A stretch of 64,000 nt of DNA from Escherichia coli (lineage in GTDB: Bacteria > Pseudomonadota > Gammaproteobacteria > Enterobacterales > Enterobacteriaceae). Each line of letters opens with the position of its first letter. Within the stretch, counting starts at the first letter, position 1. The stretch lies in NCBI RefSeq assembly GCF_051903065.1, contig NZ_CP178438.1. One strand, 5' to 3'. This document shows, in pieces, positions 32,701-35,700 of this stretch. A program made the position numbers.

Positions 32701-35700
32701 ACGCCCGTTCGATGATTAGCCCGGTGGTTTGCAGCAATATCGATGATTTCAGTGGCTTGATCATTAAAGCTCAGGGCCATGTTGTGGCGGGTCAAACACC
32801 GCTGTATGAAATCAAAAAGTAATCTGCTTTATGCCTGATGCGACGCTTGAGCGTCGCATCCAACAATGACAAGCGGTGGAGATCTTCTCTGCCGCTTTTT
32901 TTTTCATCAATCATCCCCATAATCTCAGTGAGATTTTCGATTTTCACTAACTAACAGTTGTCAGCCTGTCCCGCTTATAAGATCATACGCCGTTATACGT
33001 TGTTTACGCTTTGAGGAATCCACGATGAGTGAGGCAGAAGCCCGCCCGACTAACTTTATCCGTCAGATCATCGATGAAGATCTGGCCAGTGGTAAGCACA
33101 CCACAGTACACACCCGTTTCCCGCCGGAGCCGAATGGCTATCTGCATATTGGCCATGCGAAATCTATCTGCCTGAACTTCGGGATCGCCCAGGACTATAA
33201 AGGCCAGTGCAACCTGCGTTTCGACGACACTAACCCGGTAAAAGAAGATATCGAGTATGTCGATTCGATCAAAAACGACGTTGAGTGGTTAGGTTTTCAC
33301 TGGTCTGGTAACGTCCGTTACTCCTCCGATTATTTTGATCAGCTCCACGCCTATGCGATCGAACTGATCAATAAAGGCCTGGCGTACGTTGATGAACTGA
33401 CGCCGGAACAGATCCGCGAATACCGCGGCACCCTGACGCAGCCTGGTAAAAACAGCCCGTACCGCGACCGTAGCGTTGAAGAGAACCTGGCGCTGTTCGA
33501 GAAAATGCGTACCGGCGGTTTTGAAGAAGGTAAAGCCTGCCTGCGTGCGAAAATCGACATGGCTTCACCGTTTATCGTGATGCGCGATCCGGTGCTGTAC
33601 CGCATTAAATTTGCTGAACACCACCAGACTGGCAACAAGTGGTGCATCTACCCGATGTACGACTTCACCCACTGCATCAGCGATGCCCTGGAAGGTATTA
33701 CGCACTCTCTGTGTACGCTTGAGTTCCAGGATAACCGTCGTCTGTACGACTGGGTACTGGACAACATCACCATTCCTGTTCACCCGCGCCAGTACGAATT
33801 CTCGCGCCTGAATCTGGAATACACTGTGATGTCCAAGCGTAAGCTGAACCTGCTGGTGACCGATAAGCACGTTGAAGGCTGGGATGACCCGCGTATGCCG
33901 ACCATTTCCGGTCTGCGTCGTCGTGGTTACACTGCGGCTTCTATTCGTGAGTTCTGCAAACGCATCGGCGTGACCAAGCAGGACAACACCATTGAGATGG
34001 CGTCGCTGGAATCCTGCATCCGTGAAGATCTCAACGAAAATGCGCCGCGCGCAATGGCGGTTATCGATCCGGTGAAACTGGTTATCGAAAACTATCAGGG
34101 CGAAGGCGAAATGGTTACCATGCCGAACCATCCGAACAAACCGGAAATGGGCAGCCGTCAGGTGCCGTTTAGCGGTGAGATTTGGATCGATCGCGCCGAT
34201 TTCCGCGAAGAAGCTAACAAGCAGTACAAACGTCTGGTGCTCGGTAAAGAAGTGCGTCTGCGTAATGCTTATGTGATTAAGGCAGAACGCGTCGAGAAAG
34301 ATGCCGAAGGTAATATCACCACCATCTTCTGTACTTATGACGCCGACACCTTAAGCAAAGATCCGGCTGATGGTCGTAAAGTGAAAGGCGTTATTCACTG
34401 GGTGAGCGCGGCACATGCGCTGCCGGTTGAAATCCGTTTGTATGACCGTCTGTTCAGCGTGCCGAACCCTGGTGCTGCGGATGATTTCCTGTCGGTGATT
34501 AACCCGGAATCGCTGGTGATCAAACAGGGCTTTGCTGAGCCGTCGCTGAAAGATGCGGTTGCGGGTAAAGCATTCCAGTTTGAGCGTGAAGGTTACTTCT
34601 GCCTCGATAGCCGCCATTCTACGGCGGAAAAACCGGTATTTAACCGCACCGTTGGGCTGCGTGATACCTGGGCGAAAGTTGGCGAGTAATTTTAAGTTTC
34701 GCTATGCCGGATGGGGCGTTTACGTCGCATCCGGCAAGGAACAGACAAACAGTTTCAAACGCTAAATTGCCTGATGCGCTACGCTTATCAGGCCTACATG
34801 ATCTCTGCAATATATTGAGTTTGCGTGCTTTTGTAGGCCGGATAAGGCGTTCACGCCGCATCCGGCAAGAAACATGCAAACAATCCTAAACGCCGCGGTC
34901 TGCGGCGTTTTTTTCTGCTTTTCGTCACGAATTAATTCCGCTTCGCAATTTATCCATAAAATAAATTTAAAATAACAAAACATAATTAAATAAAATGTAA
35001 CCGCTTTCATCTTGCTGGAAATTCACGCTTTTATTCTTCTGCAAGCCTTTCAACCGCAAACTTAAGCCTTGTAACAAAAATCATCAAAATATGTGCGGTT
35101 GCTCATGTTCTTACATTCTGGTTACAGAAAGAGATTGATAATTCGCGCCGCGAAAAATAGTCTGTTCCTGTAGTCAGCGAGACTTTTCTCAACGCTACTT
35201 TTTTAATTTTTATTTTTTCGCTGTTCACCTTTGGTGCAGCAATTTATACGTCAAAGAGGATTAACCCATGCGTACGTTTAGTGGCAAACGTAGTACGCTG
35301 GCGCTGGCTATCGCCGGTGTTACAGCAATGTCGGGCTTTATGGCAATGCCGGAGGCTCGCGCCGAAGGATTCATCGACGATTCAACCTTAACCGGCGGTA
35401 TCTATTACTGGCAGCGTGAACGCGACCGTAAAGATGTTACCGACGGCGACAAATACAAAACCAACCTTTCTCACTCCACCTGGAATGCCAACCTCGATTT
35501 TCAGTCTGGTTATGCTGCTGATATGTTCGGCCTTGATATTGCCGCGTTTACGGCGATTGAAATGGCGGAAAACGGCGACAGCTCTCACCCGAACGAAATC
35601 GCGTTTTCAAAAAGTAATAAAGCCTATGACGAAGACTGGTCCGGCGATAAAAGCGGTATAAGCCTGTATAAAGCAGCGGCCAAATTTAAATACGGTCCGG

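What the first reader, a model, noticed from the sequence alone, without database searches (positions are those of the whole stretch)
34769..34867. Three near-identical ~100-bp BIME copies at separate junctions
The unit GCCTGATGCGCTACGCTTATCAGGCCTAC - 30-35 nt - TGTAGGCCGGATAAGGCGTTCA(C/T)GCCG... occurs after glnS (34769..34867) and after pgm (42199..42296), and in inverted orientation between phr and dtpD (60021..60128). Single REP units are also present at 9955..9984 and 34706..34735. These are dispersed recombination and RNA-structure substrates and may underlie the structural differences at the pgm-kdpE site.
Basis: seen in the sequence. Interest (0 to 1): 0.3.

Follow-up and report, generated by a model that had tools for sequence, protein, structure and literature searches.

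The report
Three ordinary BIME-1 repeat elements
The three ~100-bp repeats are ordinary copies of a long-known E. coli intergenic repeat (BIME-1: two REP palindromes around a linker with an IHF-binding-type site), and one copy sits exactly on the edge of a 5.7-kb deletion between pgm and kdpE.

Summary
The window is E. coli chromosome, and it carries three Y-REP / 35-nt linker / Z-REP units at 34769-34867 (+), 42199-42297 (+) and 60021-60128 (-).

- **Similarity:** "Near-identical" is too strong: whole units are 78-88% identical, and the third copy has a longer Y REP.
- **Identity:** anatomy, position and copy number all fit BIME-1, also called RIB or RIP. Each linker has an IHF-consensus site (12 of 13 positions). 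Each unit is single and lies at the 3' end of genes. The linker occurs a median of 26 times per E. coli genome and is also found in E. albertii and Pseudocitrobacter.
- **Rfam:** it lists the linker as ES036/CssrF.
- **Structure:** as single strands the units fold into one long Y:Z hairpin.
- **pgm-kdpE:** K-12 has a complete BIME-1 followed by ybfP through speFL. The window allele breaks inside the Z REP's 3' arm, has lost the element's right flank, and abuts kdpE.

This is a known kind of element, so interest is low.

The parts
34769..34867 (+). BIME-1 copy 1, downstream of glnS (glnS is 33025-34689). Y REP 34769-34797, L linker 34798-34832, Z REP 34833-34867.
   Evidence: Sequence. Alignment. 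Partition and identities. K-12 carries the same element.
34808..34820 (-). IHF-consensus-like site in the linker of copy 1 (ACTCAATATATTG, 12 of 13 positions of WATCAANNNNTTR).
   Evidence: Published work places an IHF site in the BIME-1 L linker (PMC3333891, PMC2817692).
34706..34735 (+). Single Z-type REP between the glnS stop codon and BIME-1 copy 1.
   Evidence: Sub-threshold naRNA4 half-match at 31 bits.
34703..34762 (+). First copy of a 60-nt direct repeat made of a REP plus a 27-nt tail. The second copy is at 34834-34893, 80% identical.
   Evidence: family D10.
34888..34910 (+). Intrinsic terminator-like hairpin followed by a T-run, downstream of copy 1. The REP and BIME-1 therefore lie inside the predicted glnS 3' UTR.
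   Evidence: Fold of -14.7 kcal/mol.
42146..42179 (.). pgm terminator hairpin with an A-run on one side and a T-run on the other, upstream of BIME-1 copy 2. It folds on both strands.
   Evidence: -21.9 kcal/mol on the + strand and -15.3 on the - strand. The consensus scan did not list it.
42199..42297 (+). BIME-1 copy 2, between pgm (40492-42132, +) and kdpE (42307-42984, -). Y REP 42199-42227, linker 42228-42262, Z REP 42263-42297. The Z REP's 3' arm is altered (GCCGGATCCAGCA instead of GCCGCATCCGGCA) and the right-flank motif is missing.
   Evidence: Weakest fold of the three, z = -2.4.
42238..42250 (-). IHF-consensus-like site in the linker of copy 2 (ATTCAATATATTG).
42284..42306 (+). Junction segment of the deletion allele: the Z REP's 3' arm plus a 9-nt tail (GCCGGATCCAGCATTTAACCGC) running up to the kdpE stop codon (TAG, 42307-42309). 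K-12 has the right-flank motif and ybfP through speFL (5693 bp) here.
   Evidence: The same junction is found in 112-145 of 5426 genomes.
42183..42198 (+). Left-flank motif of copy 2 (TGACAAACACAGAATT, matching the family left flank GACAAACGCAAAATT). It includes an 11-nt segment, AAACACAGAAT, that is absent in other alleles.
60021..60128 (-). BIME-1 copy 3, inverted, filling most of the 149-nt gap between the convergent genes phr (58575-59993, +) and dtpD (60143-61624, -). Z REP 60021-60055, linker 60056-60090, long-form Y REP 60091-60128.
   Evidence: It forms a near-perfect 114-nt hairpin, -56.5 and -57.4 kcal/mol, z = -8.3 and -9.3.
60056..60098 (+). Rfam ES036 (CssrF) match. It covers the linker of copy 3 plus 8 nt of the Y REP.
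   Evidence: 75.1 bits against a gathering score of 37.6. The other two copies score 28.9 and 32.6 bits on the - strand.
60068..60080 (+). IHF-consensus-like site in the linker of copy 3 (ATTCAATAAATTG).
9955..9984 (+). Single REP between the convergent genes djlC and hscC.
   Evidence: Gene names come from the K-12 map.
32833..32864 (+).
   Evidence: (D9, I6).
23361..23454 (+).
   Evidence: (D9).

Best explanation
The three units are members of the BIME-1 family, also called RIB or RIP elements. Each is one Y-type REP and one Z-type REP in opposite orientation. Each REP is bounded by CTAC or GTAG. The two are separated by a conserved 35-nt L linker that carries an IHF-type site.

**Shown here:** the anatomy, the family membership at sequence level, the copy number and the positions at gene 3' ends.

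**Inferred from published work on the family:**
- On DNA, IHF binds and bends the linker between two cruciform-capable palindromes.
- On RNA, a transcribed copy folds into a stable hairpin that protects the upstream mRNA's 3' end or attenuates read-through. The glnS copy sits in the glnS 3' UTR. The phr-dtpD copy lies between convergent genes that have no other terminator. The pgm copy lies directly downstream of kdpE in this strain.
- The family spreads and rearranges through the REP-associated tyrosine transposase (RAYT, TnpAREP) and through recombination between copies.

**The pgm copy marks one end of a deletion.** A complete BIME-1 followed by ybfP-ybfG-ybfI-potE-speF-speFL, as in K-12, has been cut inside the Z REP's 3' arm and joined to a REP-like sequence beside kdpE. 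This most likely happened by recombination between two directly repeated Z REPs.
For: - **Anatomy and alignment:**
- **Linker is specific to these sites:**
- **IHF-like site:** 12 of 13 consensus positions in all three copies.
- **Published definition of BIME-1:** y plus z REPs, a conserved long L linker with an IHF site, single copies (PMC3333891; PMC2817692).
- **The Z REP contains the most common E. coli REP 21-mer,** GATGCGGCGTGAACGCCTTAT (PMC8049555; window 60027-60047).
- **Other species:** 23 loci in E. albertii and 6 in a Pseudocitrobacter MAG hold the linker core; across all fetched loci, 25 copies have a Y REP and a Z REP on either side.
- **Position:** all three copies lie at gene 3' ends.
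- **Terminators:**
- **Folding:** z = -4.3, -2.4 and -8.3/-9.3. The consensus Y:Z hairpin appears in 20 copies.
- **Deletion:** K-12 has the intact Z REP plus the right flank. The 29-copy consensus shows the right flank is part of the element. The window and O145:H28 share a junction inside the Z REP. The type-B allele has a second Z REP beside kdpE that is co-linear with the window's junction sequence, 51 nt at about 80% identity.
Against: - No binding, transcript or stability data were generated here. The IHF match is one mismatch off consensus, and 59 such sites occur in the window, so the site alone is not informative.
- Linker conservation in the 29-copy alignment is partly by construction, because those copies were found with the 17-mer pattern.
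- Covariation support for the hairpin is close to nil: a covariation term of 0.07 and one compensatory pair.
- The pgm copy lies downstream of the pgm terminator, so it may not be part of the pgm mRNA.
- No sampled allele has exactly the right-hand parental sequence of the deletion. The nearest, type B, differs at 10 of 51 positions. REP-REP recombination is therefore inferred, not shown.
- I could not separate z1 from z2. PMC3333891 says BIME-1 uses z1, yet the same hairpin matches the Rfam naRNA4 model, which was built from REP325, described as Y-l-Z2 repeats.
Confidence: 0.9

Rival explanations
1. The phr-dtpD copy is an independent small-RNA gene (Rfam ES036/CssrF), not just a repeat.
For: It matches ES036 above the gathering score, 75.1 bits over the full 43-nt model. 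A Shigella study that named chromosomal sRNAs 'cssr' detected cssrF by northern blot (PMC3071730). About 80% of annotated REP elements are reported as transcribed (PMC4550694).
Against: - The 43-nt model is simply the BIME-1 linker plus 8 nt of the Y REP.
- The glnS and pgm copies match the same model at 28.9 and 32.6 bits.
- No promoter-like or terminator-like site is found in 59800-60400.
- The Shigella cssrF locus is dacB/yhbZ and its transcript is about 290 nt, so it is a different place and size.
Confidence: 0.1
2. The units are non-autonomous mobile elements (REPIN- or MITE-like) whose present positions reflect RAYT-mediated insertion and carry no host function.
For: - The 29-copy consensus is about 165 nt, with imperfect inverted-repeat outer flanks matching at 13 of 16 positions.
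- The units form long hairpins.
- TnpAREP cleaves and recombines BIMEs in vitro (PMC3333891).
- BIMEs have been proposed to be non-autonomous transposable elements (PMC2817692).
- Two E. albertii copies carry a matched GGTCTAC/GTAGACC change on both arms.
Against: - This explains origin, not present role, so it is compatible with the main explanation.
- All three copies are at the same loci in K-12.
- A BIME-1 lies at the phr-dtpD junction in another genus, which points to long retention.
- No RAYT gene was looked for in the window.
Confidence: 0.35
3. The window's pgm-kdpE arrangement is ancestral, and the ybfP-speFL segment was inserted into the REP in other strains.
For: REPs are known insertion targets for IS elements (PMC1525189, title and abstract listed). 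K-12 carries a 139-nt duplicate of the kdpE 3' end (ybfI) next to a half REP, which shows the segment has a complex history.
Against: - The window copy lacks the right-flank motif that most copies in the 29-copy alignment carry, as do the A and B alleles. An insertion would have had to bring exactly the missing flank next to the Z REP.
- The adjacent arrangement is rare, 112-145 of 5426 genomes.
Confidence: 0.1

Closest known systems
BIME-1, also called RIB or RIP elements, of E. coli (Gilson 1991; Bachellier 1994; Boccard and Prentki 1993; Oppenheim 1993, as cited in PMC3333891, PMC2817692 and PMC3184786)
   Same: - One Y and one Z REP in inverted orientation with CTAC/GTAG boundaries.
- A conserved ~35-nt L linker with an IHF-type site.
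- Single units, not arrays.
- Extragenic, at the 3' ends of transcription units.
- Tens of copies per genome.
   Different: Nothing essential. The pgm copy is truncated (altered Z 3' arm, no right flank). The phr-dtpD copy has a long-form Y REP and no outer flank motifs. I could not assign z1 or z2.
BIME-2 and atypical BIMEs, for example REP325, which encodes naRNA4 (PMC4550694)
   Same: The same Y and Z REP building blocks. The Z REP here matches the first hairpin of the Rfam naRNA4 model.
   Different: BIME-2 has short S/s/l/r linkers, occurs as tandem arrays and binds gyrase strongly. The copies here have the long L linker and are single. naRNA4 matches reach only 26-40 bits against a gathering score of 59.5.
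REPINs mobilised by RAYTs (Bertels and Rainey; Nunvar 2010; PMC8049555)
   Same: A doublet of inverted REPs that forms a long hairpin. It is dispersed and maintained as a population within the genome.
   Different: The enterobacterial doublet is asymmetric (Y differs from Z), and BIME-1 carries a 35-nt linker with an IHF site. No RAYT gene was examined here.
Rfam RF02751, ES036 (CssrF) sRNA
   Same: The 43-nt model aligns to the L linker of all three copies, and one copy scores above the gathering threshold.
   Different: The family is filed as an sRNA gene. Here the match is part of a repeat with no promoter or terminator of its own.

Membership tests
BIME-1 (RIB/RIP) | Two REPs, one Y-type and one Z-type, in opposite orientation | tested here: met
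   for all three copies.
BIME-1 (RIB/RIP) | Conserved long L linker between the REPs | tested here: met
   Each linker is 35 nt. The 21-nt core is 81-86% identical between copies and occurs nowhere else in the window. The same core lies between Y and Z REPs in 25 copies from other genomes.
BIME-1 (RIB/RIP) | IHF binding site in the linker | tested here: inconclusive
   Each copy matches the IHF consensus at 12 of 13 positions. There are 59 matches of that quality in the window, and binding itself cannot be tested with these tools.
BIME-1 (RIB/RIP) | Occurs as a single unit, not a tandem array | tested here: met
   There is one Y-L-Z unit per locus. The glnS locus has one extra single REP.
BIME-1 (RIB/RIP) | [quoted passage not shown] | tested here: met
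   The copies lie after glnS, between pgm and kdpE, and between phr and dtpD.
BIME-1 (RIB/RIP) | Z REP is of the z1 subtype (per PMC3333891) | not tested
   No reference z1 or z2 sequences were available. The same hairpin matches the naRNA4 model, which derives from Y-l-Z2 repeats.
BIME-1 (RIB/RIP) | Dispersed, multi-copy family in enterobacteria | tested here: met
   Median 26 linker matches per E. coli genome, capped at 40. There are 23 loci in E. albertii and 6 in Pseudocitrobacter.
Rfam ES036 (CssrF) | Score at or above the gathering threshold of 37.6 bits | tested here: met
   Met only for the phr-dtpD copy, at 75.1 bits. The other copies score 28.9 and 32.6 bits and do not meet it.
Rfam naRNA4 (CssrE) | Score at or above the gathering threshold of 59.5 bits, with both hairpins matched | tested here: not met
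   Best scores are 39.7, 31.0 and 26.3 bits, and only one hairpin matches.
REPIN/RAYT system | An associated RAYT (TnpAREP, yafM) gene that mobilises the doublets | not tested
   No RAYT search was run on the window or on the strain's genome.

The most novel reading that the evidence does not exclude
The pgm-kdpE interval may be a recurrent REP-mediated rearrangement hotspot. At least four junctions across E. coli alleles fall in or beside REPs:
- the window's deletion inside the Z REP;
- the type-B allele, in which a second Y-Z pair replaces ybfG through speFL;
- K-12's kdpE fragment (ybfI) joined to a half REP;
- the unique TR01 allele, in which potE'-speF replaces the BIME-1 linker.

If these are independent events driven by RAYT cleavage or REP-REP recombination, the locus would be a natural series for measuring how BIMEs reshape gene content.
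Probability: 0.3. Interest if true: 0.35.

Novelty: already known. Interest (0 to 1): 0.12.

Why it matters
It matters little for discovery. BIME-1 elements have been described since the early 1990s, and these three copies are also present in K-12.

The practical value is for annotation.
- The three sites should be labelled as BIME-1 repeats.
- The Rfam ES036 hit at phr-dtpD should be read as a repeat linker, not as a dedicated sRNA gene.
- The absence of speF-potE in this strain is a real deletion allele, shared by about 2-3% of complete E. coli genomes, and its breakpoint lies inside a REP.

Tried and rejected
- **Original papers:** I looked for the RIB and BIME papers (PMC413762, PMC333889) and the RNA-seq paper cited for REP transcription (PMC3166833, checked in case it was the source of ES036). 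None is held.
- **Text searches:** searches for 'ES036' and 'CssrF' returned only unrelated hits. The cssr naming was traced to a Shigella study in which cssrF lies at dacB/yhbZ.
- **TR01 as parent:** I first took O157:H7 strain TR01 to be the parental allele carrying a REP beside kdpE. A junction search showed TR01 is unique (1 genome). Its left end shows it is a derivative of the deletion allele. I dropped that idea.
- **Genome-wide counts:** an exact count was not obtainable.
- **Terminator scan:** the consensus scan missed the pgm terminator. I confirmed it by folding instead.
- **Covariation:** the 20-copy analysis had almost no variation to work with.
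Full report
**What is there.** The window is E. coli chromosome. The pgm-kdpE stretch is 100% identical to strain ECNB21-M121, and the gene order follows K-12 from before djlC to past dtpD.

Each unit has the same three parts:
- a Y-type REP ending in CTAC;
- exactly 35 nt of linker;
- a Z-type REP starting with GTAG (GTAGGCCGGATAAGGCGTTCACGCCGCATCCGGCA).

The parts are at these coordinates:

| Copy | Strand | Y REP | Linker | Z REP |
|---|---|---|---|---|
| glnS | + | 34769-34797 | 34798-34832 | 34833-34867 |
| pgm | + | 42199-42227 | 42228-42262 | 42263-42297 |
| phr-dtpD | - | 60091-60128 | 60056-60090 | 60021-60055 |

The single REPs at 9955-9984 and 34706-34735 are also real.

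**Is it more than chance, and is it more than REP arms?** The repeat finder independently pairs the three units. The glnS and pgm copies share 112 nt at 85%. Each is 82-85% complementary to the phr-dtpD copy over 84-85 nt.

The alignment shows identity running through the linker. The first 8 nt of the linker vary. A 21-nt core (CTGCAATATATTGAATTTGCG and variants) is 81-86% identical between copies. Allowing 5 mismatches, that core occurs only three times in 128 kb of both strands, always between a Y and a Z REP.

"Near-identical" is generous:
- Whole units are 88%, 81% and 78% identical.
- The phr-dtpD copy has a Y REP that is 8 nt longer.
- The pgm copy has three substitutions in its Z REP.

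**What it is.** Every sequence-level feature fits BIME-1, also called RIB or RIP. Ton-Hoang et al. describe BIME-1 as one y and one z REP in inverse orientation. The REPs are separated by a long, well conserved L linker that frequently carries an IHF site, and the unit occurs singly (PMC3333891). Nunvar et al. say the same of the inter-REP sequence and IHF (PMC2817692).

- Each linker here has a 12-of-13 match to WATCAANNNNTTR, at 34808-34820 (-), 42238-42250 (-) and 60068-60080 (+). Fifty-nine matches of that quality occur in the window, so the match supports the assignment only in context.
- The Z REP contains GATGCGGCGTGAACGCCTTAT. Park et al. report this as the most common REP 21-mer in E. 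coli (PMC8049555).
- All three copies lie at gene 3' ends: after glnS, between pgm and kdpE, and between the convergent genes phr and dtpD.

**How many copies.** A consensus linker query finds matches in 5425 of 5426 complete E. coli genomes. The range per genome is 7 to 43 with a median of 26. Records are capped at 40 pieces, and the K-12-derived records shown (MG1655, ER1709) list 40 places, the cap, so these are lower bounds.

Before stopping it returned 23 loci from E. albertii, 6 from a Pseudocitrobacter MAG, and scattered singletons of the kind chance predicts. Twenty-five of the non-singleton hits have a Y REP on one side and a Z REP on the other.

**The full element.** I aligned 29 copies: the three window copies, the K-12 pgm copy and the 25 others.
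- left flank TGAGACTGATGACAAACGCAAAATT;
- Y REP, linker and Z REP;
- right flank TGAACAAAGCGCACTTTGTCAGCAATCTGA.

The outer ends are imperfect inverted repeats, matching at 13 of 16 positions. I recall these as the external motifs of the original BIME description, but I could not check that because the paper is not held. Conservation of the 17 linker columns used for the scan is by construction. Conservation of the REPs and flanks is independent of it.

In the window, the glnS copy keeps part of the left flank. The pgm copy keeps the left flank but not the right. The phr-dtpD copy has neither.

**RNA databases.**
- Rfam reports ES036 (CssrF) at 60056-60098 with 75.1 bits against a gathering score of 37.6. 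That interval is the linker plus 8 nt of the Y REP.
- The glnS and pgm linkers match the same model at 28.9 and 32.6 bits on the opposite strand, as their orientation predicts.
- The 'cssr' names come from a Shigella study in which cssrF lies between dacB and yhbZ and gives a ~290-nt band (PMC3071730).
- No promoter-like or terminator-like site lies in 59800-60400.
- I therefore read the hit as a repeat linker captured by an sRNA family, not as a dedicated gene.
- The Z REPs give half-matches to naRNA4, the HU-binding RNA from REP325, well below threshold.

**Structure.** Folded alone as RNA, each unit prefers one long hairpin in which Y pairs with Z and the linker core forms the tip.

| Copy | Energy (kcal/mol) | z-score |
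|---|---|---|
| glnS | -44.1 | -4.3 |
| pgm | -35.8 | -2.4 |
| phr-dtpD, + strand | -56.5 | -8.3 |
| phr-dtpD, - strand | -57.4 | -9.3 |

RNAalifold on 20 copies predicts the same Y:Z hairpin, but the covariation term is 0.07 and only one pair shows a compensatory change. Conservation supports the structure; covariation does not.

The glnS copy lies between the stop codon and a strong terminator at 34888-34910, so it should be part of the glnS 3' UTR. The pgm copy lies after a hairpin at 42146-42179 that folds on both strands. In this strain the copy is also only 9 nt from the kdpE stop codon, so it is more likely to be transcribed from the kdp side.

**Mechanism.** The anatomy and family membership are shown here. 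The rest is inferred from published work on the family:
- IHF binding to the linker;
- mRNA stabilisation and transcription attenuation by REPs and BIMEs;
- cleavage and strand exchange at REPs and linkers by TnpAREP.

**The pgm-kdpE difference.** K-12 has a complete BIME-1 after pgm, including the right flank. It is followed by ybfP, ybfG, ybfI, potE, speF and speFL, then kdpE, a span of 5693 bp.

The window matches K-12 up to GTAGGCCGGATAAGGCGTTCA. It then reads TGCCGGATCCAGCATTTAACCGC and runs straight into the kdpE stop codon, which is TAG here and TGA in K-12.

| Allele | Arrangement | Genomes (of 5426) |
|---|---|---|
| A (K-12-like) | BIME-1, ybfP through speFL, kdpE | about 5,000, the remainder by subtraction |
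| B | BIME-1, ybfP, a second short-linker Y-Z pair, kdpE | 246 |
| C (window) | truncated BIME-1, kdpE | 112-145 |
| TR01 | potE'-speF replaces the linker | 1 |

O145:H28 strains carry the same junction as the window.

In allele B, the stretch from GTAG to the stop codon is the same length as in the window, 51 nt, and about 80% identical. Most copies in the 29-copy alignment carry the right flank, and the window copy lacks it. The window allele is therefore best read as a deletion derivative. Its left break is inside the Z REP, most simply by recombination between two directly repeated Z REPs.

The exact right-hand parent was not found, so the mechanism remains an inference. I first took strain TR01 for that parent. 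It turned out to be unique and derived from the deletion allele.

**Verdict.** These are real, correctly located and correctly named elements of a long-known family, present at the same loci in K-12. Novelty is nil and interest is low. The only mildly interesting point is that REP-associated junctions recur at the pgm-kdpE locus.

Noticed in passing
L001 12727-12905 (K-12, ybfI region): The K-12 pseudogene ybfI is a 139-nt copy of the kdpE 3' end, 87.8% identical. It is followed directly by a half REP (CTACATCTGCCGGATGCGGCA) and a sequence like the BIME-1 right flank, then the potE terminator. This is another REP-associated junction in the same interval.
   Followed up: partly
L126 5081-5200 and 9290-9370 (O157:H7 strain TR01): This allele is unique among the 5426 genomes. 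The Y REP of the pgm BIME-1 is joined 8 nt into the linker to the interior of potE. On the other side, the region upstream of speFL is joined directly to the deletion-allele Z REP beside kdpE. The linker has in effect been replaced by potE'-speF-speFL. It could be a real recombinant or an assembly error.
   Followed up: partly
L003 1626-2465 (strain CB7453, type-B allele): 246 genomes have pgm, BIME-1, ybfP, then a second short-linker Y-Z REP pair directly before kdpE. speF-potE is absent.
   Followed up: partly
window 42187-42197: There is an 11-nt indel (AAACACAGAAT) at the left edge of the pgm BIME-1. It is present in the window and K-12 and absent in the O145:H28, CB7453 and TR01 alleles. 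SNPs across the terminator and BIME are mosaic between alleles, which suggests recombination.
   Followed up: partly
window 34703-34762 and 34834-34893: A 60-nt direct repeat at 80% identity, made of a Z-type REP plus 27 nt of tail, brackets the Y REP and linker of the glnS BIME-1. The second copy ends inside the 5' stem of the glnS terminator. It looks like an old local duplication.
   Followed up: no
L120 6840-7110 (Pseudocitrobacter MAG): A BIME-1 lies between phr and dtpD in the same orientation as in E. coli, although the flanking genes are only 77-79% identical. It has the short Y REP and both outer flanks, unlike the E. coli copy. It could be orthologous or an independent insertion.
   Followed up: partly
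L022 and L026 (E. albertii): Two BIME-1 copies carry GGTCTAC in the Y REP and GTAGACC in the Z REP. This is a matched change on both arms that keeps Y:Z pairing, and it is the only compensatory pair seen.
   Followed up: no
L086 (contig assigned to an uncultured Bacteroides MAG): The contig carries a complete enterobacterial BIME-1 with both flanks. It is probably an enterobacterial contig placed in the wrong bin.
   Followed up: no
window about 16000-16200 (gltI-lnt interval): Coordinate offsets against K-12 change by about 1196 bp between sroC and the tRNA cluster. This fits the absence of K-12's IS5D copy in this strain.
   Followed up: partly
window 14952-15114 and 23505-24205: sroC sRNA (168.7 bits) and the seven-tRNA cluster from glnX to metT are present as expected for this region.
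   Followed up: no
window 5624-6043 and 8421-8840: Two blocks 2797 bp apart are 73-77% identical. They correspond to the paralogous ybeR-djlB and ybeU-djlC gene pairs on the K-12 map.
   Followed up: no
window 42985-58574: The distance from kdpE to phr is about 2.2 kb shorter than in K-12, so the rhsC/ybf region between them differs in structure.
   Followed up: no
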